A DNA stretch of 21,891 nt from a virus. Its lineage: Duplodnaviria; Heunggongvirae; Uroviricota; Caudoviricetes. Below, in pieces: positions 1-13,767 of the stretch. Positions within the stretch are counted from its first letter, which is position 1; every line of letters starts with the position of its first letter. The notes beneath the pieces were generated by a model. The model did no database searches, was not told where the DNA came from, and saw only the letters and a program-made list of their open reading frames with translations. The stretch lies in IMG/VR virus record IMGVR_UViG_2778261300_000004, positions 1-21,891 of that record. One strand, written 5' to 3'. Both the position numbers and the translations under genes were made by a program.

Positions 1-516
1 ATGAAATTTAAAAAATGTCTTCTGCCTGTGGCAATGTTAGCGTCATTCACTCTGGCAGGATGCCAGTCAAATGCTGACGATCATGCCGCCGATGTTTATC
101 AAACCGATCAACTGAATACCAAACAAGAAACTAAAACCGTTAATATTATTTCCATTCTTCCCGCAAAAGTTGCCGTAGACAACTCCCAAAATAAACGGAA
201 CGCACAAGCCTTCGGCGCGCTTATTGGCGCAGTCGCTGGCGGTGTTATCGGCCACAACGTCGGTTCTGGCAGCAATTCCGGAACGACGGCAGGGGCAGTT
301 GGCGGCGGAGCTGTAGGCGCGGCAGCGGGTTCTATGGTGAATGATAAAACCTTAGTGGAAGGTGTTTCTTTAACCTATAAGGAAGGCACCAAAGTGTATA
401 CCTCTACCCAGGTGGGTAAAGAGTGCCAGTTTACGACAGGTTTAGCCGTTGTTATTACCACGACGTATAACGAAACGCGTATTCAGCCAAATACCAAATG
501 TCCTGAAAAGAGCTAA
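1..516 (+). CDS. Outer-membrane lipoprotein with glycine-zipper segment (YcfJ / Rick_17kDa_Anti-like); probably host flank or cargo
   Basis: ATG at window start; signal peptide ending in lipobox LAGC; Gly/Ala-rich segment GALIGAVAGGVIGHNVGSG resembling the YcfJ-type glycine zipper as recalled. Confidence 0.55.
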   Translation: MKFKKCLLPVAMLASFTLAGCQSNADDHAADVYQTDQLNTKQETKTVNIISILPAKVAVDNSQNKRNAQAFGALIGAVAGGVIGHNVGSGSNSGTTAGAVGGGAVGAAAGSMVNDKTLVEGVSLTYKEGTKVYTSTQVGKECQFTTGLAVVITTTYNETRIQPNTKCPEKS

Positions 517-531
517 TAATCAGGAGGAGTC

Positions 532-1071
532 ATGAAGAAAGTTTTTCTTTGCGCCATCTTAGCCTCCTTAAGCTATCCGGCTATCGCCTCATCATTGCAG
601 GATCAACTCTCTGCTGTCGCAGAAGCGGAACAGCAAGGTAAAAATGAAGAGCAAAGGCAGCATGACGAATGGGTCGCGGAGCGCAACAGGGAAATCCAGC
701 AAGAGAAGCAACGTCGCGCAAATGCCCAGGCCGCCGCTAACAAAAGAGCGGCAACGGCAGCGGCAAATAAGAAAGCTCGTCAGGATAAACTGGACGCCGA
801 AGCCACTGCGGACAAAAAACGCGATCAAAGTTATGAAGATGAGCTACGCAGCTTAGAGATTCAGAAACAAAAACTGGCGCTGGCGAAAGAAGAAGCCCGC
901 GTTAAGCGAGAAAACGAATTTATCGATCAGGAACTGAAGCACAAAGCTGCGCAAACCGATGTGGTGCAATCTGAAGCTGACGCCAACAGAAATATGACTG
1001 AAGGCGGTCGCGATCTGATGAAAAGCGTGGGCAAAGCAGAAGAGAACAAATCGGACAGCTGGTTTAATTAA
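532..1071 (+). CDS. Secreted, highly charged coiled-coil protein of unknown function
   Basis: AGGAGG 5-10 nt upstream of ATG 532; N-terminal signal peptide; K/E/R/A/Q-rich remainder; followed by a strong terminator. Confidence 0.55.
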   Translation: MKKVFLCAILASLSYPAIASSLQDQLSAVAEAEQQGKNEEQRQHDEWVAERNREIQQEKQRRANAQAAANKRAATAAANKKARQDKLDAEATADKKRDQSYEDELRSLEIQKQKLALAKEEARVKRENEFIDQELKHKAAQTDVVQSEADANRNMTEGGRDLMKSVGKAEENKSDSWFN

Positions 1072-3245: not shown

Positions 3246-4382
3246 TTAATTATGTTTGTTTGCTGCAATGTTAATAAAATACCTTTCAAAAAAATGGAAG
3301 GTTAAACATGACACAACACAAAGAAATATAAAGACAATAGTTAGCTGAAGATAAAAAATACCACCACTCATAGGAAGGTTGTTTTCTTTCATTACTTTAA
3401 AAGCGACATAAAAAATCACCCCCTGAAGTAGATATATACTGTAACTAGCCTCTCCAAGCCTTATAAATCCCTTGGTTCTAAATAGACCAAATAGATCGGC
3501 ACCTGAGCATACAGCAAAGAAACCTATCGCTGAAACAAATATGAGCTTTGTGCTAAGAGTGCCTGGTGAAAGTATAATAATGCTTAATATTGATGCAACC
3601 AACAAAATTTCTGATTGCAATTTTGTTATTTTCACCAGCAATGTTATTTCTTTCACCAACATACCAAAACAAAAAGCCGCCCATAAGTTTGCTTTGGCAT
3701 CTGGGAAAAATGATGGTACAAAATACATGGATAAAAAAGTAATGGCTGAGATGAACTCTAACGATTTTTCTCTAAATAAGTAAAGCAAAGGAAGAATGAA
3801 ATAAAACCCCCACTCCCACACAAGAGTCCATGTAACTCCAGCAGTTACATATCTTGAGTTAATCATCCCGTTTATATCTGGTCTTATATTCGTAAACCCA
3901 CAGTCAAACCAATACAAATAGTTCTGATACTTCTGAATAAAATCAGATGGAAGCCCTGTATAATACAATATTACAACTATAGCCAAAAGTGATGACAACC
4001 AAGCCATTGGCAAGATTCTAAACAGCCTTCCCTTATACATTGAAATCCAGTCAACACGCTCTGAGTCTCTTATTTTCCCCCAAAATAAAAAAGCAGTAAT
4101 CATGAAGAAAAAATAAACCCCAATATTTCCTATATAGTACATAAATGATGATGTGAACCACCATTTATTATTTATGGTAAAATTCAAAAAAAAGTCCATA
4201 TGGTCAAAGACGACCATTGATGCAAGTATATATCTTACACCTGTTAATTGCATATTTCTATGCAGCTTCACGCCTTTATCCATAAATGAGAATAAAGGCA
4301 TGGAAAATATTAAAGAAACAAATAATATAGAACCAAAAACCCATATTGCTAAATATATGCTATTCTGCATGATTGACACCAT
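3246..4382 (-). CDS. Integral-membrane acyltransferase family 3 (O-antigen acetyltransferase-like) moron
   Basis: 378 aa, roughly ten hydrophobic segments, strongly AT-rich relative to neighbours; acyltransferase-3-like N-terminal motif (LTGVRYILASMVVFDHM) and FFFMITAF; own terminator; immediately after the tailspike. Confidence 0.65.
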   Translation of the reverse strand: MVSIMQNSIYLAIWVFGSILFVSLIFSMPLFSFMDKGVKLHRNMQLTGVRYILASMVVFDHMDFFLNFTINNKWWFTSSFMYYIGNIGVYFFFMITAFLFWGKIRDSERVDWISMYKGRLFRILPMAWLSSLLAIVVILYYTGLPSDFIQKYQNYLYWFDCGFTNIRPDINGMINSRYVTAGVTWTLVWEWGFYFILPLLYLFREKSLEFISAITFLSMYFVPSFFPDAKANLWAAFCFGMLVKEITLLVKITKLQSEILLVASILSIIILSPGTLSTKLIFVSAIGFFAVCSGADLFGLFRTKGFIRLGEASYSIYLLQGVIFYVAFKVMKENNLPMSGGIFYLQLTIVFIFLCVVSCLTFHFFERYFINIAANKHN

Positions 4383-4453: not shown

Positions 4454-6925
4454 TTAAACCACACTTAACCAACTTGAACCATTCGCAACAACTGGGCCAA
4501 CTCCACCAGCAAGACTGGTATTTGTGTTGTAACAGTGACTCCCCCTAACCGCAGTTGCGTTACTAACATCCGCAAAAATACCAAACCCTTTAATCGCCCA
4601 CGTGACCCCTGAAACCGGTGTAGATGGTATAGCTGAGTTTCCATACTGCATATGCCCACTTATATTTACAGAGCCAGTTGTTGTGGTGAAAACTTCACCC
4701 GTTTTACTTGATACGACATTACCGCCGCAAATAACAGAATAGCCACTAACCAGACTTGTTAATTTGTCTGGCCTGTTGAAAAATCCACCGATAAACTCAA
4801 ACGAGGGAGTGGTATTGTCGTAGTTAACACCAGTACTTATAAAGCTATAACCATTAGATTGGGTTAATTTGTCGAAGATAACTTTCTCTACTTTACCACT
4901 AGACTTTCTGATCACCGCCTGCCCGGAAACCAAATCAATATTCCCCGAAACAATAACGGTGTTTATCTGCCCACGGGTGATACGAACTCCGGCTGCGTCC
5001 GACACACTGGTAGCAAGTAAGGTTTTATCGAAATTAACATTAAGATTGTCTATGCGACTATTGTCGGCACCAGCACCATCACCCCCTACCTCCAGAAAAT
5101 ATGCGACATCACGAGGGCACCGACATTCCAGATTGTAGACACGAACTGCTGATGAGCCAGCCGTCCCAGTGGTTACCGACACTACAGGCACAACTGCTGC
5201 CGAGTAGTTAGCCGAGATAACGCCGATTACAGCGTTATCGACGGTAACAGTACCAGTCCCTACTGTTTTAAATTCAATGGTTCTGTAGCCAGCGCCAGCA
5301 ATTCCACCGACATTGTCGATATTCAGTGTTTTCACGTTGGTTTGTGACAGATTTGGTCCATCTGTCCACACCCTGATTACACTATGCTGGTAGCTACCAT
5401 AAACACCATCTATGCTCAGGTGGCGAACAGGTGTTGTGCTGTTTCCTGCAACCTTTACTGCACATAAAGAATTAATGCCATAAATGCCCTTAACGTCGAT
5501 GTGATTAAACGTTCCGCGCAACCCTAAATCGTAAGCAAGGTAATCCCCTCCGGTCATTGCAAACATGTCATCGCCAGTCGTACCGTACAGATCCCTTACG
5601 TAGGCATAATCAATAGGTGGCTGTAGATGAAGTCCATCAGAGTTGTTATTAAAACGAAGCCCTTGAGCATCAAGATATTGAACGTTGGCTACAAGGTAAG
5701 AATATTTTCTTGCACCTTTAATTTCCAGTCCACCACCTAATTTAACCCGCACTGCTGATGCAATGCAGATGCAATGCATTTCCATCCCATTCGAGGTGCC
5801 TCCCGTAGAATAGTTGTAGTCAACGGTCCCACCTCCCCATATCCCAATATAATCTGAGCGGTTACCAAGATCGGATGTGTTAGAAGCAAAACCTCCCGAG
5901 ACTGTCCTGTTTGACAGAACATATTCCCATTTCTCACTTACAAATACCGGCCTCAGATTGCCAGACGCGCCTGAAACCGTAACGCCGGATTTAATTTCGA
6001 TGTCGGTGTTATTAGGGACTATGATTGGCCCATTGACAAAAATAGTACCCTGATCTGCAAACACAATTCTCGTAATCGTGGACTTACCAGACAGATCGTT
6101 CAGCATGTTCTGCAAATTTGTAGAGTTAACGGTGGCACTATTTGTTGGTAAGACACCATAATCACTTACATAATAAATCCTATCTAATTTGTCTTTTACT
6201 GTCTGTAAAATCGCAAATGGTCCCTTATTTTTATATCCTGTTATTTTTGCACCATTGTTTGCTAACTCAATTAGAACATCTGAAGCCGAGCCTGATTCTG
6301 GCAAAACGGCAATTGGTCTCCCTACATCATTAAAAGCAAGAATTTTATTCGCTCTCTCTTCATTTGATGGTATCTGATCAACATAACTTTCAGGAACTCT
6401 TAGCGTCCTTTTGAAAAGGTTGTCGACATAATAGGCGACACTGTCAACATAATTTTTTGTTGCCGCATCCTGTGGATCTCGTGGGTCTCTAAGATTACGG
6501 ATATAGTTGTTTAGCGCGTCGTACCAGTTCGCGATGCTTGATGGCTTACGCAGCGCAAGGCTAAACAAACTGCGAACCTGCTGAATCAACATCGTTAGCT
6601 TATCAAACGCATCCTCATGCACCTCAGCAAAAAACTTACCCTGATTGCGCAGATCAGTTTCCTGTGTAACCGGTAGCTCTCGTGATATAGAAATCCGATA
6701 ACCGTTAGCCAACGCCTTCGACAGAATTACATTACCGCCGTTGTACCCTCCCGCACCAGTGACTGCGTAATCAGTATCAAGAGCCAGCACAGCGATATTT
6801 TCATCAAGGTCAACCACCTGTACTACCAGATCAGATTCCTGGAAAATCCTAAAGGTATAAGGGAATGAAGTCGTAACACCGTTACCTGTGTATTCGTTGT
6901 GGTCAACTTCTGTTGATACCGTCAT
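4454..6925 (-). CDS. Tailspike / receptor-binding protein, likely beta-helix glycanase
   Basis: ATG 6925 with GGAG RBS (track start is an upstream TTG); N-terminal ~150 aa (MTVSTEVDHNEYTGNGVTTSFPYTF...QETDLRNQGKFFAEVHEDAFDKL) matches the conserved tail fibre/tailspike N-domain as recalled; G/S/T/N/V-rich remainder. Confidence 0.7.
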   Translation of the reverse strand: MTVSTEVDHNEYTGNGVTTSFPYTFRIFQESDLVVQVVDLDENIAVLALDTDYAVTGAGGYNGGNVILSKALANGYRISISRELPVTQETDLRNQGKFFAEVHEDAFDKLTMLIQQVRSLFSLALRKPSSIANWYDALNNYIRNLRDPRDPQDAATKNYVDSVAYYVDNLFKRTLRVPESYVDQIPSNEERANKILAFNDVGRPIAVLPESGSASDVLIELANNGAKITGYKNKGPFAILQTVKDKLDRIYYVSDYGVLPTNSATVNSTNLQNMLNDLSGKSTITRIVFADQGTIFVNGPIIVPNNTDIEIKSGVTVSGASGNLRPVFVSEKWEYVLSNRTVSGGFASNTSDLGNRSDYIGIWGGGTVDYNYSTGGTSNGMEMHCICIASAVRVKLGGGLEIKGARKYSYLVANVQYLDAQGLRFNNNSDGLHLQPPIDYAYVRDLYGTTGDDMFAMTGGDYLAYDLGLRGTFNHIDVKGIYGINSLCAVKVAGNSTTPVRHLSIDGVYGSYQHSVIRVWTDGPNLSQTNVKTLNIDNVGGIAGAGYRTIEFKTVGTGTVTVDNAVIGVISANYSAAVVPVVSVTTGTAGSSAVRVYNLECRCPRDVAYFLEVGGDGAGADNSRIDNLNVNFDKTLLATSVSDAAGVRITRGQINTVIVSGNIDLVSGQAVIRKSSGKVEKVIFDKLTQSNGYSFISTGVNYDNTTPSFEFIGGFFNRPDKLTSLVSGYSVICGGNVVSSKTGEVFTTTTGSVNISGHMQYGNSAIPSTPVSGVTWAIKGFGIFADVSNATAVRGSHCYNTNTSLAGGVGPVVANGSSWLSVV

Positions 6926-7028
6926 GTTCAATCTCCGGATAGTCGCAGCACCCGTTGCGCCGCATACCCGGTTATTTTATTACCTTAAAAACCACATATG
7001 GATAGATAACCCATAAATACGAACAGAT

Positions 7029-7081: not shown

Positions 7082-7101
7082 TACTGTATATTCATACAGT
7101 T
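7082..7101. promoter_or_regulatory. LexA (SOS) box
   Basis: TACTGTATATTCATACAGTT matches the CTGT-N8-ACAG consensus with both arms intact (about 17/20 to TACTGTATATATATACAGTA); 20 bp upstream of ATG 7121. Confidence 0.65.
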
Positions 7102-7120: not shown

Positions 7121-7378
7121 ATGCAGCAGTATCACTATCCACTGGAAAACGGATTTACCGAAAAGATTCACACGCCGGGAGGCGTCAGATCACTGGTGGA
7201 GGGATCGCACTTGATGAAATTACTCCGGGATCTCGATAAAGATGGATTTAATGTCGATGGTCCACTTGCCGAACTGACTGCACTGATTAACTACGTCACC
7301 AGCTCACAGATGTCTATGCAGGATCTGCAAACACATCTCGACTATTGTGCCGAACAATTACGAAAACAAACCCGGTAA
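7121..7378 (+). CDS. Small SOS-regulated protein of unknown function (candidate antirepressor or SOS-induced accessory factor)
   Basis: ATG 7121 with GGAGAAG RBS (track start is an upstream TTG at 7103); 85 aa, acidic and soluble; LexA box at its promoter; a hairpin follows. Confidence 0.5.
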   Translation: MQQYHYPLENGFTEKIHTPGGVRSLVEGSHLMKLLRDLDKDGFNVDGPLAELTALINYVTSSQMSMQDLQTHLDYCAEQLRKQTR

Positions 7379-7385
7379 ATTTAAA

Positions 7386-7401
7386 GGCCGCAAGAGCGGC
7401 C
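7386..7401. terminator. Hairpin between convergent genes (terminator-like)
   Basis: ggccgc / aaga / gcggcc; T-rich tract on the minus strand side, weaker on +. Confidence 0.4.
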
Positions 7402-7402
7402 T

Positions 7403-7414
7403 GTGACATGTCAC
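7403..7414. repeat. 12-bp perfect palindrome GTGACATGTCAC, copy 1 of 2
   Basis: Read directly; an identical copy lies at 13756-13767. Confidence 0.8.
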
Positions 7415-7421
7415 GCTCACG

Positions 7422-7562
7422 TTATGACAAGCCTATGTACCCTGCTACACCAGATAATATCAAAACAACTGCAACAGCAAATTCGCCATCGTGAATGATA
7501 CATTTACGGTTCATAACGCCAAGTGCAACAAGCGCAAACACAACAAGAATAAAAGCAATCAT
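7422..7562 (-). CDS. 46-aa hydrophobic membrane peptide (below the ORF-track cutoff)
   Basis: ATG 7562 with AGGATGAG RBS 10 nt after the 750-aa gene stop; MIAFILVVFALVALGVMNRKCIIHDGEFAVAVVLILSGVAGYIGLS gives two hydrophobic segments; stop at 7422-7424. Confidence 0.4.
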   Translation of the reverse strand: MIAFILVVFALVALGVMNRKCIIHDGEFAVAVVLILSGVAGYIGLS

Positions 7563-7571
7563 TTCTCATCC

Positions 7572-9824
7572 TTATTGCGGAGTGACATCCTGTGGTCGCC
7601 ACCAGTATGTCTGGTTAAACTCTTTCTTCGAACGTTGCTCCATTTTACGCAAATAACCTGGTGAAAAATACTCCTGCATCTGGTTAAAGATCATGTGATC
7701 GAGAGCCGCCTTTAAGTACCAGAGATTCGCACCTGGCATCAGACCTTTCCCCAGCTTAACCAGATCACCACCAGTCTGCTCATTCTTCCCTTCCACAGCA
7801 TTTAACGGTATGCCCTGAGCAATCTTCACTACGTCATCAACCAGACCAGCTACCGGGCCAAGCATCGACGCCAGCGCGCCGCTTCCGTACCTGGTGTGAT
7901 CTGACAATAAAAAGTCACCGTAAAGGCCAAGACCACCACCTTTCAGTAGAGCACCAAGCCAGAATTTTGCGGCATCTTCTCCTGTCATCTCTCGAGGATT
8001 ACGACCAGACGCAAGGTCGTTAAGTTGCTGCGACAAAGCGCCAAGAATGGTCGTACTGGCAATAAACGTCGCAATATATGCCGCACGCCCACCAGCAGAC
8101 GGCATACCCATAGCGCGTGACCAGTGACGCATAACCACCGAGATAGGGAACGATTTAAACAGGAAAACACTTCTCGTTAATTCACCTTTCCATGTTCCAC
8201 GCTGAATACCAGAACCGGTTATCAGTTGCTCACGTGCTCCCGGTGTAATAACAGCCATATCAACTTCTTCAGTTACGGCACCGAGCAGTTTACGCATTGC
8301 CTCAAATTTCACGCGTTCAGGCTCACCAAGATGTTTAACTGCTGAATCAGGGATACGCATAATGCTTTCCGGTGTCAGCATCGTATTATTGCCGTTCCCC
8401 CAGTCCTCCTGTTGCGCCAGACTCCATACGCTCCAGTCTGTGTCAGTAATCCCTTTGCTTTTCAGGATACGATAATCAGAATCATCGAGGCTATGAAGGT
8501 CTGGTGTCCGTGACACTACTTCTCCCAGGCTTCCCATCATGGTTACGCCATAGGCGCGCTTGTGCGCATCTGACCATGCTGTAAGCCCACTGGCACGCAT
8601 TACCGCCGTTGCAGCCCAACGAGACACAGACGGCCCCATATTATCCATCGCCCAGCGGTTAACGCTGCCAAGTAGAGATTCCATCGCCAGACCAGCGCGG
8701 CGCGCCCGCGCAAGCTCAGTACGGTTCGTTGGGTCCATAGCTTCAAGCTGGTTGCGGAATAACTGGTTCATTGGAAGGTTGGTCACCTTCGCAGACAGAT
8801 ACATGGTTCCAAGATCAGAGAACGATGACAGCAACGCGGATCCGAGTCTGCTGGCAACCAGCCAGTTGCGGATATTGTCAGACCATCGCGCGATGTGCGG
8901 ATTCGCTACAGGCTGTGTCTTTCCGGAAATAAAGTTGTACAGATTCTCTGTGTTGTTCGCCAGCCGCTCGACTTTACCGGTTTTACTCGGGTTAGCTGTT
9001 GCCGTTTCTGCCTTAACCTGATCAAGAAGGGAGCGGAAAACATGATCGGGGTTTGGACCATATGTTTCCACCAGAGCAATATCTTTACTGATACCTTCCA
9101 GGTGACCGACCATGATTTCCCATAGAGAGCGATCGCCATAAAGTTGTTGATATTGGAGATAGGAATCTGCATCTTTGAAATGTATCTGTCGTGATGCATT
9201 ACCACGGTTAGCACGTGCGCCGGAAATTCGCATTCCGGTATCAGTAAGCTTATTCAGCCCACCAGTAGCGATCGTGTTATAAGCCTCTCCAAGAAATGCA
9301 GACAACTCGGCATCGTTCATCAGTTGTCCATCGGCTCGGGTATAATATTTGCGATCCAGCTTACCTATAACATCGCTAACCCACTTATCCTTTGATACCG
9401 CCCCAACCTTTTCCATAGAATGATGTTGAGGGATCCCCCAGTTTTCGAGATAGCCAATGTCCCCACCAGCATCATTAAACCGGCGGCGCAGCAGCTCTGT
9501 AACTTCTCTCCACGCCTTAGCACCTTTTCTTGCTTTAGCATTGCCAGTATTTTGCCCCCGCATTTCATATACCAGGTCACGTACGCCCGCTTCATCTTCA
9601 AACAGACCAAAAAAGCGAGGATCAACTGCTTCGAATGCCTCCTGCAATTGACTCAATGCATAATCACGGGTGGCTTTTGTTCTGGATTCAACAGAGAGGA
9701 AATTAGATTTACCGTCTGCATTAAAAGCTATAGTACGGTTAAGAGCGCCAAGTTTCCCATCAGCCCCTTGATAGCTATTGATAAATTTATCCAATCTCTG
9801 ACGCGCGGCTATAGTGAGAGCCAC
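7572..9824 (-). CDS. Large virion protein, probably a DNA-ejection/injection (internal) protein of a podovirus-like particle
   Basis: 750 aa, GTG start; soluble N-terminal part and a C-terminal region with hydrophobic and Gly-rich segments; sits upstream of the tailspike where P22-like phages carry ejection proteins. Not portal-like by eye. Assignment is positional. Confidence 0.4.
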   Translation of the reverse strand: MALTIAARQRLDKFINSYQGADGKLGALNRTIAFNADGKSNFLSVESRTKATRDYALSQLQEAFEAVDPRFFGLFEDEAGVRDLVYEMRGQNTGNAKARKGAKAWREVTELLRRRFNDAGGDIGYLENWGIPQHHSMEKVGAVSKDKWVSDVIGKLDRKYYTRADGQLMNDAELSAFLGEAYNTIATGGLNKLTDTGMRISGARANRGNASRQIHFKDADSYLQYQQLYGDRSLWEIMVGHLEGISKDIALVETYGPNPDHVFRSLLDQVKAETATANPSKTGKVERLANNTENLYNFISGKTQPVANPHIARWSDNIRNWLVASRLGSALLSSFSDLGTMYLSAKVTNLPMNQLFRNQLEAMDPTNRTELARARRAGLAMESLLGSVNRWAMDNMGPSVSRWAATAVMRASGLTAWSDAHKRAYGVTMMGSLGEVVSRTPDLHSLDDSDYRILKSKGITDTDWSVWSLAQQEDWGNGNNTMLTPESIMRIPDSAVKHLGEPERVKFEAMRKLLGAVTEEVDMAVITPGAREQLITGSGIQRGTWKGELTRSVFLFKSFPISVVMRHWSRAMGMPSAGGRAAYIATFIASTTILGALSQQLNDLASGRNPREMTGEDAAKFWLGALLKGGGLGLYGDFLLSDHTRYGSGALASMLGPVAGLVDDVVKIAQGIPLNAVEGKNEQTGGDLVKLGKGLMPGANLWYLKAALDHMIFNQMQEYFSPGYLRKMEQRSKKEFNQTYWWRPQDVTPQ

Positions 9825-9835
9825 ACGACGTTTCT

Positions 9836-10090
9836 TTAATGCCGCTTCACCATGTCAGAAAACTCAAGGCGGAGATCAGCATCTTTAGGCATCGGAATAC
9901 CTTTCGCGTCATCAGTACCTTTACGAGCCGCCGCGCCAGCAAGAATTGTCTGCGCAGCGGTTTCAGGAGACACGGAAACATCCGGATTAAACCAGTTTTT
10001 TTCTGCCAAAATACCACCTGGCTTATCCATCAGTATCCCGGCAACGGCAGCAGATGGAGCGTTGGCACTGATCTGCTGTAGTGCTGACAT
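9836..10090 (-). CDS. Short ORF, probably the C-terminal remnant of a truncated upstream virion gene
   Basis: 84 aa from ATG 10090; stop 12 nt before the 750-aa gene start; nothing phage-structural lies upstream of it, only the tRNA island. Confidence 0.3.
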   Translation of the reverse strand: MSALQQISANAPSAAVAGILMDKPGGILAEKNWFNPDVSVSPETAAQTILAGAAARKGTDDAKGIPMPKDADLRLEFSDMVKRH

Positions 10091-10343
10091 ATACACCTGC
10101 CCACCACCAGTGCTCTGCCTGATGGTAGCGGTCTGGATACGTTTAAGGGGCACCCTCCCTTGCTCGGGCAAACGAACCAGGTAGCCGGAATGTGCAAGTC
10201 GAGCGGTTTTATTCCGCGCACGGGGATTCACCATCCCGGCGATTCGGTGTGACACCTCGGAAGAGACGAGGGTGCAACGATGAGAGCATTTATGGAGCCG
10301 CGACAAAGTGTGGTGCCTTAACAGGCTAAGTGCTCTCAGCGTT

Positions 10344-10420
10344 GTGGCATTAGCTCAGTTGGACAGAGCAACCGCCTTCTAAGCGGTTGGTCGCAGGTTC
10401 GAATCCTGCATGCCACGCCA
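10344..10420 (+). tRNA. tRNA-Arg, anticodon UCU (reads AGA/AGG)
   Basis: Cloverleaf folded by hand: 7-bp acceptor stem GTGGCAT/ATGCCAC, D-arm GCTC..GAGC, anticodon stem ACCGC/GCGGT with loop CTTCTAA, T-arm GCAGG TTCGAAT CCTGC, discriminator G and encoded CCA. Confidence 0.9.
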
Positions 10421-10463
10421 GAATCACGCCTAAGGACCGTGATGCCAGAAGTTCCAGGTGCTT

Positions 10464-10506
10464 GGCGGTGATGGTTTCCCTTGAAGGACTACCACCGCCC
10501 TTTTTA
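10464..10506 (+). terminator. Hairpin plus T-run after the tRNA (terminator-like)
   Basis: ggcggtg ... caccgcc arms followed by CTTTTTACA. Confidence 0.35.
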
Positions 10507-10583
10507 CAGCAGGACGCCATTGCGATGACTTCATGCTGTAAACCCGTACAGCCACGGAAGGCATAACTCATTGCTTCCAGTTC

Positions 10584-10608
10584 GCCCACTTCAGTGGGCT
10601 TTTTTTTC
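10584..10608 (+). terminator. Rho-independent terminator
   Basis: gcccac / ttca / gtgggc followed by T8. Confidence 0.7.
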
Positions 10609-10620
10609 TAGTGACTACTG

Positions 10621-10637
10621 ATTACCTTATGGGTAAT
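10621..10637. promoter_or_regulatory. Operator-like inverted repeat A-TTACC-N5-GGTAA-T in the promoter region of the AT-rich gene
   Basis: attaccttatgggtaat, perfect arms; overlaps a candidate -10 TAATAT (10634-10639) about 30 bp upstream of ATG 10669. Confidence 0.5.
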
Positions 10638-10668
10638 ATGCTGCAAACAAATAACACAAGGCCGTGAC

Positions 10669-11487
10669 ATGCTTGACTTCATCCGTGACATTTACTCCTC
10701 TTTCCGCCAAGCATCTCTTGAGCGGGTGAAAAGCCCGTTCCTTGGGGCATTTGTTTTTTCCTGGCTTTGCTTTAATTGGCAGATGTTAGCAATTCTATTT
10801 TTTAGTTCTAAGGATATTGAAAAGCGCCTTGCTATTATTAATGGCTCTTTCGGCATCGTCAGCTTTTTAATTGCGCCAATATGCACTACAGCATTGATAG
10901 TTATCCTTTTACCGCAAATTAATAAATTAATTACAATAATACAAGATAAACCTAACTCAGACACAATTGAAATGAGCCTTGCATCTAAAATAAAGATCGC
11001 CGAACTGCAGCAACTATTAGCAGAAAATGAAGCAAGAAAGAAACTTGCTGATAAAAAAGAAGAACGCTTCATTGAAGAGAATATTATTTCAATAAAAAAA
11101 GACCATGAAAAAGCAATAGATAACCTTAAAGACAAAGAAAGTAAAATCTCAAATCTCACGGACACAATAACTGAACTTCAGAGCAAACTGGTTAAAGCTG
11201 AGGCCACTCTCAAAGTTGAACAGGAGTCAAGATCCCAAGTGCAGAATGAATTGATTATTGAAAAAGAGAACAAGCGGAAATTAGAAGACAACATTCTGCA
11301 CCTTAATTTAAGTTTAAAAAAAAACCAATCAGAATTGGCCATTGCAAAAGAAGCCTATGATAATACCTTGATGGCTTATAATGAACTTAACACAACATTA
11401 AAAAAAGCAGAAAGCTCAATAATAAACTTCAACGCTAACTTTCCTTTTTTAACTGACATAAATAACAGCACCCCAAATACATACTAA
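10669..11487 (+). CDS. AT-rich moron: protein with two N-terminal TM helices and a long coiled coil (candidate exclusion, abortive-infection or host-takeover factor)
   Basis: 272 aa; two N-terminal hydrophobic segments then a K/E/L/N-rich heptad-like region; composition much more AT-rich than flanking phage genes; opposite strand to neighbours; own promoter-like and terminator-like signals. Confidence 0.55.
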   Translation: MLDFIRDIYSSFRQASLERVKSPFLGAFVFSWLCFNWQMLAILFFSSKDIEKRLAIINGSFGIVSFLIAPICTTALIVILLPQINKLITIIQDKPNSDTIEMSLASKIKIAELQQLLAENEARKKLADKKEERFIEENIISIKKDHEKAIDNLKDKESKISNLTDTITELQSKLVKAEATLKVEQESRSQVQNELIIEKENKRKLEDNILHLNLSLKKNQSELAIAKEAYDNTLMAYNELNTTLKKAESSIINFNANFPFLTDINNSTPNTY

Positions 11488-11582
11488 AAAAAAAATAAAA
11501 ATGCATGGGAGCATTTAGTTAGTTTAAATTTAAGTCTAAAGGAGAAAATACAAAAATAAATAACCAATCCACTATGGCATAT

Positions 11583-13052
11583 TTACTCATACGGGTCATA
11601 ATCTATTATAGCCTTACCCTGCTGCTGGCGCGGATCATTAAGTTTTTTTGTGACCGGAAAAGCAAACGTCAGCAGTAGCGCATCGCCTTTACCCGGCGAA
11701 CGCCCAAGCCGCTCCTTGATATCTTCCTTCGGTTCGATAACGATTTTACCGTCCACGCGAACTTTGTACTCTGCCGCCGACAGGTCGTCCGCTGTTTCCT
11801 GGTCATCCAGCATGCCGCCCAGCCTCAGCCATGTCTTGCATGAGTTGAACATCTCCCCACGCTTGTTAAGCATCTGCGGGTCAGTGGACGCACCGCCGAA
11901 CGGAACAAGTTGCCATGTACGTCCCCAGCCATCACCGATTGACTTCAGACCAGTTCCGTAACCGAAGTCGATGAACACTGCGTCAGCCTGGTACTGGTCT
12001 TCAAAGTCAGCGATATGCTTCGCCATAATCAGATCGTCAGTGGTCTTGTTGCCAGTCCACAGCACCTTACTGTGCAGCCCCTGCCGCAGGTATATCACAG
12101 CGTCATCAACGCCGGAGTATGCCGGGTCAACGCCGATTATCACCGGTGCATGTGCCACCTGCGCAGCAGTTACCACCCGTTTCATTGCCTCGTCAGTAAG
12201 ACCGGTAGGGATAAACTGCAATTCAGATGCATCAGGGAATATGCCGCGCACACGGATTTTAACGAAGTCGCTGTCTTCCCCGTAGTCATCAACCCATTTC
12301 TGCAATTGCTGCTTGTTAGTACCTTCCACCGTCCGGCTGTCAATCTGCGCAGTTTTCCAGCGGTGTTTATATTTGCGGAAACATTCACGGAAACGTCCGG
12401 TATTACGCGTCGGGTTTCCGAACGCCACCCAGATAATCTCAGTGTCTTCGTCCGTAAGCGCACCCTCAGCAACTTCCCACACCAGATCCGCAATGTTCGA
12501 CGCTTCATCGAATACCACGATGATGCGTTTGCGCTCGTTGTGTAGTCCGGCGAATGCCTCAGTGTTGTGCTCAGACCAGGGGATTGCGTCAGCTCGCCAC
12601 CGCTTGTCGTGCCCAGGATCATTGCTGTACATCGCAGTAGCGGTACAGGTAAACCAGTCTTTCGTGATAGCAAGGTTCGACCACTTGATAATTTCCGGCC
12701 AGGTCTTCGTTCGTAGCTGGTTGTCGGTGTTGGCGGTCACCACGACCTTACAATCCTCGCAAGTGGACATGCCCCAGTTGATCAGCATTGAGATGAGTGC
12801 TGATTTACCAATACCGTGACCCGAAGCACGTGCCAGCATAAGCGGCTGATAGCGCGTCTCGGGATTCTGCAGGTGATCACGTATCTCTCGGAACGCATCG
12901 GCCTGCCACTGACGTGGGCCGGAAGCATGTGCCAGTTCAGTCCCCTCTTCCCCCCACGGGAACGCATAGAGGGCATAGCCAAGCGGATCGTGAGTGAACC
13001 CTGCAATATCCTCGATCAACTGCTCTTCAGGAGATAACGCTGCATCTGTCAC
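11583..13052 (-). CDS. terL: Terminase large subunit
   Basis: 489 aa; Walker A-like SGHGIGKS; GTG start overlaps the terS stop (GTGA). Confidence 0.8.
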   Translation of the reverse strand: MTDAALSPEEQLIEDIAGFTHDPLGYALYAFPWGEEGTELAHASGPRQWQADAFREIRDHLQNPETRYQPLMLARASGHGIGKSALISMLINWGMSTCEDCKVVVTANTDNQLRTKTWPEIIKWSNLAITKDWFTCTATAMYSNDPGHDKRWRADAIPWSEHNTEAFAGLHNERKRIIVVFDEASNIADLVWEVAEGALTDEDTEIIWVAFGNPTRNTGRFRECFRKYKHRWKTAQIDSRTVEGTNKQQLQKWVDDYGEDSDFVKIRVRGIFPDASELQFIPTGLTDEAMKRVVTAAQVAHAPVIIGVDPAYSGVDDAVIYLRQGLHSKVLWTGNKTTDDLIMAKHIADFEDQYQADAVFIDFGYGTGLKSIGDGWGRTWQLVPFGGASTDPQMLNKRGEMFNSCKTWLRLGGMLDDQETADDLSAAEYKVRVDGKIVIEPKEDIKERLGRSPGKGDALLLTFAFPVTKKLNDPRQQQGKAIIDYDPYE

Positions 13053-13645
13053 TGATTGCCATCCTGACGTTCTTTCAGTCTCTTCCTGGCTGCTGCTATG
13101 CGATCAGCAATTGTCACATTCACATTAACATCCATGCGTTCTTTGAACGCGTTGACGTCGACGTGCTTACCAATCAGTTCGAGGTTCTTCACCTTGTCAG
13201 GCCATTTAATTTTTTTGAGGATTGTCTCTATCGAATCCTCGTTCATGTTCATGATGGTCGATGACAGATCAAAGCCGCTAAGCGTAGTGCGCCAGATTTT
13301 CGGCCACTCGCGGATTGGCTTAAGGCTCCCATCGTCGTTGAGGATATCAATCACGTCCATCTGGTCGATCTCCACCAGGCGCATGAGAACGTAATCGGCA
13401 CTGACGCGCATTCGTTTGTTGCGCTCCTCCATCAACTCGGCAATCCGTTTTTGAATGCGTTCATCGCGCATCATGACACTGGCTTTAACTGCCGCTGTAT
13501 TTGGGGAGAATCCTGCGTTAATCGCTGCCTGAGTCTGGTTTTCAGGCGTTTTGATGTATGACTGGCAATAAGCCTCCTGCATTGCTGTTAGTGGCTTAAA
13601 TTGCGTTGATTTGCGTTTATAGGTTTTAGGTTCAGCAGACATCAT
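13049..13645 (-). CDS. terS: Terminase small subunit
   Basis: Most likely start is the ATG-ATG at 13645 (MMSAEPKTYKRK...); the track ORF begins at an upstream TTG (13723); basic helical protein directly before and coupled to terL. Confidence 0.65.
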   Translation of the reverse strand: MMSAEPKTYKRKSTQFKPLTAMQEAYCQSYIKTPENQTQAAINAGFSPNTAAVKASVMMRDERIQKRIAELMEERNKRMRVSADYVLMRLVEIDQMDVIDILNDDGSLKPIREWPKIWRTTLSGFDLSSTIMNMNEDSIETILKKIKWPDKVKNLELIGKHVDVNAFKERMDVNVNVTIADRIAAARKRLKERQDGNQ

Positions 13646-13755
13646 AACCACCGTGGTAATAGTTACCGTTGTGGTAATAGTACCATGCAAAATAAAGCCG
13701 CCATAGTTGGCGGCAGTATTCAAAACCCGTCAAATTCATCATGCATAATCTACTC

Positions 13756-13767
13756 GTGACATGTCAC
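13756..13767. repeat. 12-bp perfect palindrome GTGACATGTCAC, copy 2 of 2
   Basis: Read directly; overlaps the stop codon of the 13764-14111 gene, just upstream of terS. Confidence 0.8.

What the first reader, a model, noticed from the sequence alone, without database searches (positions are those of the whole stretch)
7422..7562. Unlisted 46-aa two-helix membrane peptide coupled to the ejection-protein gene
A short ORF with a good RBS starts 10 nt after the 750-aa gene stop and encodes two hydrophobic segments. It falls below the ORF-track size cutoff. Its position matches where P22-like phages encode superinfection-exclusion membrane proteins, and it is convergent with the SOS-controlled gene.
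Basis: partly seen in the sequence, partly recalled or inferred. Interest (0 to 1): 0.4.

Follow-up and report, generated by a model that had tools for sequence, protein, structure and literature searches.

The report
Known small phage membrane protein gene
The 46-codon ORF is a real, conserved gene for a two-helix membrane peptide, already annotated as a hypothetical protein in phiV10/epsilon15-like (not P22-like) prophages, and its function, possibly blocking DNA entry by related phages, has never been tested.

Summary
Window 7562..7422 (minus strand) encodes a 46-aa peptide. An AAGGA ribosome-binding site overlaps the upstream stop codon, the gap to the ATG is 9 nt, and a terminator follows. 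It is a real gene: pN/pS is 0.21 over 25 alleles, it matches PHROG 7892 over its full length (E 3.7e-32), and AlphaFold gives a helical hairpin (pLDDT 90.6).

It is not new. GenBank and RefSeq already annotate it: PhiV10p21 "putative integral membrane protein, two TM helices", SPC32H_019, and WP_000559990.1.

The phage is an epsilon15/phiV10-like Uetakevirus prophage, not P22-like, and here it is defective. The "750-aa gene" is a 5'-truncated gp17, the counterpart of the T7 gp16 ejection protein.

The ORF sits in a swappable cassette slot. The slot is bounded by the gp17 3' end and a conserved palindrome plus terminator. Relatives carry unrelated small membrane proteins or lipoproteins there; some distant relatives carry nothing.

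The peptide shows no similarity to P22 SieA. P22 sieA also lies on the opposite strand with its own promoter, whereas no promoter was found here.

Superinfection exclusion at the inner membrane is the best guess (about 0.3) but is unproven. Interest is low.

The parts
7422..7562 (-). 46-aa ORF including its stop codon. It encodes a helical-hairpin membrane peptide: helix 1 residues 2-19 (7559..7506), loop NRKCIIHDGEF, helix 2 residues 25-45 (7490..7428). It belongs to the PhiV10p21 / SPC32H_019 / PHROG 7892 family.
7569..7573 (-). AAGGA Shine-Dalgarno sequence. It overlaps the TAA stop (7574..7572) of the upstream gene and lies 6 nt before the ATG.
   Evidence: A TAAGGA / TAGGGAG / TAGTGAGG context with an 8-10 nt gap is conserved in 44 of 45 IMG/VR loci; in the more divergent loci the ORF likewise begins just past the stop.
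7572..9824 (-). 5'-truncated gp17-like internal virion (ejection) protein D gene. It is 750 codons from the first in-frame GTG, whereas intact relatives have 824 aa.
   Evidence: PHROG 684 match to profile positions 76-831 of 840. Intact 824-aa genes are seen. The homology break at about 9848 is. The IVP-D assignment of epsilon15 gp17 comes from PMC4819975.
7403..7414 (.). Perfect 12-bp palindrome GTGACATGTCAC between the ORF stop and the terminator. It is the conserved right-hand boundary of the cassette slot.
7375..7402 (-). Intrinsic terminator of the late operon: stem-loop AGGCCGC-TCTT-GCGGCCT at 7402..7385, then TTTAAATTT.
   Evidence: A terminator is annotated at the same position in phiV10 and epsilon15.
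7121..7378 (+). Convergent 85-aa gene, an ortholog of the gene annotated ant (anti-repressor) in SPC32H and of epsilon15 gp19.
7082..7101 (+). LexA box TACTGTATATTCATACAGTT upstream of the Ant-like gene.
   Evidence: The equivalent box in SPC32H is shown.
4454..6931 (-). Tailspike / tail fibre gene. It is the next late gene downstream, beyond the ant module.
9836..10306 (-). Fragment of the gp15-like gene, joined out of frame to the truncated gp17 by a deletion junction at about 9845-9848.

Best explanation
SHOWN. The ORF is a genuine, conserved protein-coding gene for a 46-residue helical-hairpin membrane peptide. It is the last gene of the late (virion) operon of phiV10/SPN1S-type Uetakevirus prophages. 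It always begins 8-10 nt after the stop of the gp17-like ejection protein (IVP-D) gene, has its own Shine-Dalgarno sequence, and is followed by a conserved palindrome and a terminator. It occupies an exchangeable accessory slot: relatives with 73-99% identical gp17 carry unrelated small membrane proteins or a lipoprotein there, and several distant relatives carry nothing. It is therefore dispensable for virion assembly. It evolves 2-6 times faster than gp17 but remains under purifying selection.

INFERRED (about 0.3). The peptide inserts into the inner membrane with both termini in the periplasm and the conserved NRKGIIEDGEF loop in the cytoplasm. There it interferes with the trans-envelope DNA-delivery conduit built by the gp15/16/17-type ejection proteins of incoming related phages. 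That would make it a superinfection-exclusion or injection-immunity factor that works like P22 SieA or T4 Imm. It would be made with the late genes rather than from its own prophage promoter. In this window the prophage is defective, so any such role would depend on residual transcription.
For: Gene reality:
- pN/pS is 0.21 and variable sites by codon position are 25/9/40.
- The ORF is retained in alleles down to about 50% identity.
- It matches PHROG 7892 over its full length.
- It is annotated in phiV10, SPC32H and RefSeq.

Hairpin structure: AlphaFold2 mean pLDDT is 90.6.

Linkage: the ORF follows gp17 with an 8-10 nt gap in 44 of 45 loci, and directly after gp17 in the more divergent loci too.

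Accessory, swappable slot:
- 285 complete E. coli genomes carry the gp17 3' end but only 54 carry this ORF, and homology breaks exactly at the ORF start.
- Alternative cassettes are seen.
- BcepC6B, VP5 and YeP5 have no gene in the slot.

Faster evolution than gp17: dN 0.069 vs 0.032, 0.20 vs 0.033, and 0.35 vs 0.082.

Lower GC: 39% against 49.5% for gp17.

[quoted passage not shown] It blocks the gp16/gp20 conduit, and its conserved motif is predicted to be cytoplasmic (PMC10883804). Epsilon15 gp17 is an IVP-D homolog (PMC4819975).
Against: - No experiment or expression data exist for this family; no paper mentions it.
- No sigma-70-like promoter was found in the 338 nt upstream, so expression in a lysogen, which is usual for exclusion genes, is doubtful.
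- P22 sieA has the opposite orientation and its own promoter.
- There is no detectable similarity to SieA or to any Pfam, NCBIfam or PADLOC family. P22 SieA itself also hits nothing in NCBIfam or PADLOC, so that absence is uninformative.
- In five of the six enterobacterial slot types examined (phiV10-type, ML35, ZX5/AR_0086, Tyrion, epsilon15) a short hydrophobic ORF begins within about 12 nt of the gp17 stop, although the sequences are unrelated; the Klebsiella phage has none. This could instead point to a role tied to gp17 itself.
Confidence: 0.3

Rival explanations
1. The peptide is a helper or self-immunity factor coupled to gp17. It is made in step with the membrane-active ejection protein. 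It either keeps newly made gp17 from damaging the producer cell's inner membrane or helps handle gp17 before packaging.
For: The gap to the gp17 stop is invariably 8-12 nt or an overlap. Unrelated short hydrophobic ORFs sit in the same coupled position in epsilon15, Tyrion, ZX5/AR_0086, ML35 and Shamal. No independent promoter was found.
Against: Nearly identical gp17 proteins (98-99%) work with entirely different cassettes. YeP5, BcepC6B, VP5 and the Klebsiella phage have no coupled small ORF. The peptide diverges much faster than gp17. Two independent deletion derivatives keep the ORF although gp17 is truncated or nearly gone.
Confidence: 0.2
2. The peptide is a lysogenic-conversion 'moron'. 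It would be a small inner-membrane modulator of a host transporter, sensor kinase or envelope function, expressed at a low level from the prophage and benefiting the host.
For: The slot is accessory and swappable, has lower GC and has its own terminator. Other cassettes encode envelope proteins, including a lipoprotein. The intact ORF is retained in two independently deleted defective prophages.
Against: No promoter was found. The defective prophages are very recent (99.8-99.98% identity), so retention says little. There is no similarity to known small regulatory membrane proteins.
Confidence: 0.12
3. The peptide modulates lysis timing. It would act like a holin, antiholin or membrane-depolarising peptide late in infection.
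For: It is a late-operon gene, and a small two-TM hairpin resembles class II holins in general architecture.
Against: A complete lysis cassette lies elsewhere: Phage_holin_8, Phage_holin_3_7, a GH19 endolysin and Rz. No holin family is hit in Pfam at E<=10. At 46 aa, with no charged C-terminal tail, it is atypical for a holin.
Confidence: 0.1
4. The peptide is a type I toxin of the Hok/Gef kind that stabilises the prophage.
For: A superficial resemblance: a TM segment, then RK, then C.I..DG.E.A (from the reviewer's own reading of the sequence).
Against: hhalign probability is 0.9%. The Cys is not conserved in the family. There is no antisense RNA locus.
Confidence: 0.03
5. The ORF is spurious and not translated.
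For: It is short, and no direct expression data exist.
Against: The codon-position pattern and pN/pS of 0.21. The frame, start codon and Shine-Dalgarno sequence are conserved over 50 or more loci from several genera.
Confidence: 0.02

Closest known systems
PhiV10p21 (YP_512275.1) / SPC32H_019 / SPN1S 'putative membrane protein' / RefSeq WP_000559990.1; PHROG 7892
   Same: Same family at 87-96% identity. Same length, same position directly after the gp17-like gene, and same terminator. It is already described as having two predicted TM helices.
   Different: Nothing material. The window allele has His at loop position 24, where other E. coli alleles have D, G or E. Its host prophage is defective.
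Epsilon15 gp18 (NP_848226.1, 64 aa; PHROG 29212)
   Same: It occupies the same slot: it overlaps the gp17 stop, has two hydrophobic segments, and ends at the same GTGACATGTCAC palindrome plus terminator.
   Different: No detectable sequence similarity (hhalign probability 0.6%). It is longer. Its function is also unknown.
P22 SieA (superinfection exclusion; PMC10883804)
   Same: It is an inner-membrane protein encoded between the IVP-D-type ejection gene and the tailspike gene, next to the ant module. It targets the ejection-protein conduit. Only some relatives carry it, and it comes in divergent types.
   Different: SieA is 162-164 aa with 3-4 TM segments and the FxRYPxEAxxFNK motif. It lies on the opposite strand with its own PsieA promoter and is expressed from the prophage. 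There is no sequence similarity. The phage lineage is different.
T4 Imm and HK97 gp15 (small membrane proteins that block DNA entry)
   Same: They are small phage-encoded inner-membrane proteins that act on DNA injection. T4 Imm is listed as a DNA-injection inhibitor in PMC11436027, which also cites the HK97 gp15 exclusion paper. That Imm has 83 aa and two TM segments, and that gp15 is a moron-encoded inner-membrane protein, is my own knowledge.
   Different: No family hit of any kind in Pfam. Genomic context and expression timing differ. No direct sequence comparison was run.
Hok/Gef type I toxins
   Same: A small hydrophobic peptide with a basic patch after the TM segment.
   Different: It fails PF01848 and hhalign. 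It has two TM helices rather than one, and there is no antisense RNA module.

Membership tests
PHROG 7892 / PhiV10p21 family | Full-length match to the 46-position family profile | tested here: met
   E 3.7e-32, residues 1-46 against profile positions 1-46 of 46. tblastn identity to phiV10, PAS61, SPN1S and SPC32H is 87-96%.
PHROG 7892 / PhiV10p21 family | Position directly after the gp17-like IVP-D gene and before the palindrome and terminator | tested here: met
P22 SieA superinfection-exclusion family | Sequence homology, including the conserved FxRYPxEAxxFNK motif | tested here: not met
   hhalign probability is 0.1% against P22 SieA. The motif, described in PMC10883804, is absent from the 46-aa sequence.
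P22 SieA superinfection-exclusion family | About 160 aa with 3-4 TM segments | tested here: not met
   The peptide has 46 aa and two helices. SieA has 162-164 aa.
P22 SieA superinfection-exclusion family | Own promoter, expressed from the prophage, transcribed independently of the late operon | tested here: not met
   The ORF is on the same strand as the late gene with a 9-nt gap, and no promoter-like site was found in the 338 nt upstream. P22 sieA is on the opposite strand with an annotated promoter. A consensus scan cannot exclude a weak promoter.
P22 SieA superinfection-exclusion family | Located between the IVP-D-type ejection gene and the tailspike gene | tested here: met
P22 SieA superinfection-exclusion family | Blocks DNA injection by related phages | not testable with these tools
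   This needs plating, K+ efflux or DNA-entry assays.
Moron (accessory gene cassette in a prophage) | Own terminator, atypical composition, and presence or absence among otherwise near-identical relatives | tested here: met
   Terminator. GC 39% against 49.5%. Present in 54 of 285 E. coli genomes that carry the gp17 3' end.
Moron (accessory gene cassette in a prophage) | Own promoter | tested here: not met
   (consensus scan only).
Hok/Gef type I toxin | Match to PF01848 | tested here: not met
   No hit at E<=10 for the peptide or four divergent relatives, whereas a Hok control scores E 1.2e-21. hhalign probability is 0.9%.
Holins (class II) | Membership of a holin family and location in the lysis cassette | tested here: not met
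   No Pfam holin hit. The lysis cassette is elsewhere.
T4 Imm-type superinfection immunity protein | Sequence family membership | tested here: inconclusive
   No Pfam family at all at E<=10. That Pfam holds an Imm family model is from my memory. No direct comparison with T4 Imm was run.

The most novel reading that the evidence does not exclude
The peptide would be a minimal (46-aa) injection-blocking immunity factor that jams the gp15/16/17 DNA-delivery conduit of related podoviruses. The slot after the IVP-D gene would be a dedicated, recombination-ready 'envelope-defence cassette' locus, bounded by the gp17 3' end and the conserved GTGACATGTCAC palindrome plus terminator, in which unrelated exclusion proteins are swapped among epsilon15-like prophages.
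Probability: 0.25. Interest if true: 0.5.

Novelty: already known. Interest (0 to 1): 0.2.

Why it matters
If the peptide does block DNA entry, it would be among the smallest known exclusion proteins. It would also give a simple genetic handle on how epsilon15/T7-type internal virion proteins cross the inner membrane. That would matter for phiV10-based O157 detection and for SPN1S-type Salmonella biocontrol phages, because lysogens or remnants carrying it could resist them. As things stand it is an ordinary, already catalogued hypothetical gene. The practical lessons are that a 60-aa ORF cutoff hides annotated small membrane genes, and that this window is a defective Uetakevirus prophage, not a P22-like one.

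Tried and rejected
- **Hok/Gef resemblance:** rejected. There is no PF01848 hit, a Hok control scores positive, and hhalign probability is 0.9%.
- **Homology to P22 SieA or epsilon15 gp18:** none.
- **Pfam, NCBIfam and PADLOC for the peptide:** nothing. PADLOC and NCBIfam also fail to recognise P22 SieA, so they cannot speak to exclusion proteins.
- **PDB sequence search:** only a designed-repeat artefact.
- **Foldseek of the hairpin model against viral structures:** only its own family is significant.
- **Exhaustive HMM search of 1.84 billion representatives:** only 5 clusters, all the same narrow family.
- **Function of the other cassettes in the slot:** PHROG families 29212, 3716 and 3075 are all 'unknown function'. 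There are no Pfam hits. The lipoprotein cassette modelled well (pLDDT 85) but gave only non-significant BamE-like matches (E about 0.3). So there is no slot-level support for exclusion.
- **Promoter search upstream of the ORF:** nothing reached 8 of 12 consensus positions.
- **Species-representative genome scan:** only one locus.
- **Literature:** no paper mentions the gene by any identifier. The Kim and Ryu 2013 SPC32H paper (PMC3807360) is not held.
- **Positive selection at loop codon 24 (H/D/G/E):** too few changes to test.

Full report
**Observation.** On the minus strand, window 7562..7422 reads ATG through TAA and encodes MIAFILVVFALVALGVMNRKCIIHDGEFAVAVVLILSGVAGYIGLS. The upstream ORF (7572..9824, minus strand) stops at TAA 7574..7572. 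The sequence TAAGGATGAGAAATG places an AAGGA Shine-Dalgarno sequence 6 nt before the ATG and leaves a 9-nt gap between the two genes. After the stop come a 12-bp palindrome (7403..7414) and a GC-rich hairpin with a T-rich tail (7402..7385). AlphaFold2, run on a 33-sequence alignment, predicts helices at residues 2-19 and 25-45 joined by a short turn, with mean pLDDT 90.6.

**Is it a gene?** I collected 46 copies (25 distinct DNA alleles) from phages, E. coli genomes and IMG/VR contigs.
- Pooled pN/pS is 0.21 in the ORF frame. Four of the five other frames give 1.1-3.1. The fifth, the antisense frame that shares third codon positions, gives 0.25 but holds no full-length ORF.
- Variable sites fall 25/9/40 over codon positions 1, 2 and 3.
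- More divergent alleles, down to about 50% identity, keep the frame, the start, the TM-loop-TM layout and the motifs (N/E)RKGxI..E(F/L) and GVAGY(L/I)G.
- The peptide matches PHROG 7892, a 46-position profile, over its full length with E 3.7e-32.

One IMG/VR copy is frameshifted, and one allele group has lost the stop codon.

**It is already annotated.**
- phiV10 lists it as PhiV10p21, 'putative integral membrane protein; two predicted transmembrane helices'.
- SPC32H lists it as SPC32H_019. SPN1S, 65FD and others carry similar labels.
- RefSeq has it as WP_000559990.1.
- The exact window sequence is in NCBI as 'MULTISPECIES: hypothetical protein [Escherichia]' on 55 contigs.

No function is recorded anywhere, and no paper in the held library mentions any of its identifiers.

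**What the element is.** The region is 97% identical to Escherichia phages phiV10 and PAS61 and about 81% identical to Salmonella phages SPN1S and SPC32H. These are members of the genus Uetakevirus, the epsilon15-like podoviruses, not P22-like phages.

The upstream gene is the homolog of epsilon15 gp17 (PHROG 684, 'virion structural protein'). Hardies et al. assign gp17 to the internal virion protein D family, the counterpart of T7 gp16 (PMC4819975). 'Ejection-protein gene' is therefore a fair label.

In this window, however, the gene is a remnant. Intact relatives encode 824 aa. Homology to phiV10 stops at window 9848 and resumes in a 283-bp fragment of the gp15-like gene. The gp16-like gene is missing. 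Between the terminase genes (11583..13723) and that fragment, the annotated phiV10 map has portal, capsid and tail genes; here there is only a plus-strand 272-aa ORF of unknown function. The window is 99.98% identical over 15.6 kb to an E. coli draft assembly (GCA_040555345.1). A second, independent deletion derivative (GCA_024331305.1) also keeps the small ORF.

**The convergent gene.** The plus-strand gene at 7121..7378 is 87% identical to the gene annotated ant (anti-repressor) in SPC32H. It is preceded by the LexA box TACTGTATATTCATACAGTT at 7082..7101, and SPC32H has the equivalent box. That SPC32H Ant is controlled by LexA was shown by Kim and Ryu, J Virol 2013. I cite this from my own knowledge and from a reference list, because the paper itself is not held.

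**A swappable slot.** Among 5,426 complete E. coli genomes, 285 carry the gp17 3' end but only 54 carry this ORF. In the rest, homology stops at window 7558 or 7569, exactly at the ORF start. One caveat applies: megablast would miss strongly diverged alleles of the ORF. What replaces the ORF in other elements:
- ZX5 and AR_0086: a 41-aa single-TM ORF plus a 126-aa lipoprotein, PHROG 3716.
- ML35: a 57-aa hydrophobic ORF plus a 98-aa four-TM protein, PHROG 3075.
- Enterobacter phage Tyrion: a 103-aa two-TM protein.
- Epsilon15: the 64-aa two-TM gp18, which overlaps the gp17 stop.
- Pseudomonas phage Shamal: an unannotated ORF of about 115 aa with several TM segments.
- A Klebsiella phage: the same lipoprotein as in ZX5.
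- BcepC6B and VP5 go straight to the tail-fibre gene, and YeP5 goes straight to a convergent gene.

All these cassette families are of unknown function. In every enterobacterial cassette type the right-hand boundary is the exact palindrome GTGACATGTCAC followed by a terminator. The slot is thus flanked by conserved sequence on both sides, which would allow exchange by homologous recombination. The peptide also diverges faster than its neighbour: dN is 0.069 against 0.032 for the Salmonella alleles, and 0.20 against 0.033 and 0.35 against 0.082 for two more distant alleles. Its GC content is 39%, against 49.5% for gp17.

**Family breadth.** A word-indexed search of 5.8 billion proteins found only close relatives (at least 72% identical), in Escherichia, Salmonella, Citrobacter and Hafnia. 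An exhaustive profile search of 1.84 billion representatives found 5 clusters in total. In every locus examined the ORF follows a gp17-like gene.

**Mechanism.** Four things are shown: it is a late-operon, ribosome-coupled, accessory membrane hairpin; it is dispensable for virions; it evolves fast; and it sits in an exchangeable slot next to the gene for the protein thought to form the inner-membrane part of the DNA-delivery conduit.

Three things are inferred. The first is topology: the only basic residues are in the loop, so the positive-inside rule places the loop in the cytoplasm and both termini outside. The second is the target, and the third is the effect.

The closest working model is P22 SieA. 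[quoted passage not shown] It blocks DNA injection, it is escaped by mutations in gp16 and gp20, and its conserved motif is predicted to be cytoplasmic (PMC10883804).

Three facts argue against a simple transfer of that model. P22 sieA is on the opposite strand with its own promoter. No promoter-like site was found upstream of this ORF. There is no sequence similarity.

I put exclusion at about 0.3, a gp17-linked helper or self-immunity role at about 0.2, a host-directed moron at about 0.12, a lysis-timing role at about 0.1, a Hok-like toxin at about 0.03 and a spurious ORF at about 0.02. The recurrence of unrelated short hydrophobic ORFs coupled to the gp17 stop is the main reason the helper idea stays alive. 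The existence of relatives with no such ORF, and of identical gp17 proteins paired with different cassettes, is the main argument against it.

**Verdict.** The gene is real but already catalogued. The phage type was misidentified. The sieA analogy holds for the genomic interval but not for orientation, promoter or sequence. Novelty is 'already known' (a gene of unknown function), and interest is low at 0.2. It would rise to about 0.5 if the exclusion role and the cassette-locus idea were demonstrated.

Noticed in passing
window 7403-7414 and 13756-13767; also L003 7518-7529, L004 5350-5361, L005 5079-5090, L066 4453-4464, L075 2262-2273, L076 2143-2154: An exact 12-bp palindrome, GTGACATGTCAC, occurs twice in the window: after the 46-aa ORF and about 30 nt upstream of the small-terminase start. 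It marks the 3' boundary of every enterobacterial cassette type in the slot, including epsilon15 (it was not found in Pseudomonas phage Shamal). It also follows the terL terminator in phiV10 and epsilon15, and at the terL and late-operon ends it sits next to an intrinsic terminator between convergent genes. The phiV10 linear record is cut inside an imperfect copy. It could be a recombination boundary or a protein-binding site.
   Followed up: partly
window 9836-13052: The prophage is defective. The homology break and junction at about 9845-9848 fit a deletion of roughly 2.4 kb that removed the first ~74 codons of gp17, the whole gp16-like gene and part of the gp15-like gene; by coordinate arithmetic the junction is out of frame. 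The portal, capsid and tail genes that phiV10 carries between terL and this point are also missing and are replaced by a plus-strand 272-aa ORF (10669-11487, PHROG 13369, unknown function). The same arrangement exists in E. coli assembly GCA_040555345.1, and a different deletion that also keeps the small ORF exists in GCA_024331305.1.
   Followed up: partly
L004 4761-4886 and 4973-5353; L008; L009; L005 4766-5077; L006 about 4839-5190: The slot after the gp17-like gene holds unrelated envelope proteins in different relatives. Several short hydrophobic ORFs that begin 8-17 nt after the gp17 stop are not annotated in the public records: 41 aa in ZX5 and AR_0086, 57 aa in ML35, and about 115 aa in Shamal.
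   Followed up: partly
window 7082-7101: A near-consensus LexA box lies directly upstream of the 85-aa Ant ortholog. The same arrangement is found in SPC32H (L002 about 4056-4075) and in epsilon15 (L003 about 7841-7860, upstream of gp19).
   Followed up: yes
window 10536-10551 and 5902-5917: Two further exact CTGT-N8-ACAG matches: CTGTAAACCCGTACAG, in the region between the gp15 fragment and the 272-aa ORF, and CTGTCCTGTTTGACAG, inside the tailspike gene. They were not examined.
   Followed up: no
L055 3001-3137; L044-L046 3001-3160: Natural variants of the small ORF. One IMG/VR copy has a frameshift after codon 19. One allele group has lost the stop codon and runs on through the palindrome, giving a 72-aa product in protein P0015.
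   Followed up: no
proteins P0005, P0006, P0009 and other 55-aa forms: Many database entries give the peptide a 9-residue N-terminal extension (MLLRNKDVK...). That extension starts inside the 3' end of the gp17 gene and is most likely a mis-called start, because the ATG with the Shine-Dalgarno sequence is the conserved one.
   Followed up: partly
window 1-1071: Two plus-strand genes lie beyond the lysis cassette at the prophage end. One is 171 aa; its 172-aa counterpart in related loci carries glycine-zipper / 17-kDa-antigen-like Pfam hits, while PHROG 1277 is labelled 'DNA methyltransferase', which looks inconsistent. The other is 179 aa (DUF5384 in the related loci, PHROG 1094).
   Followed up: no
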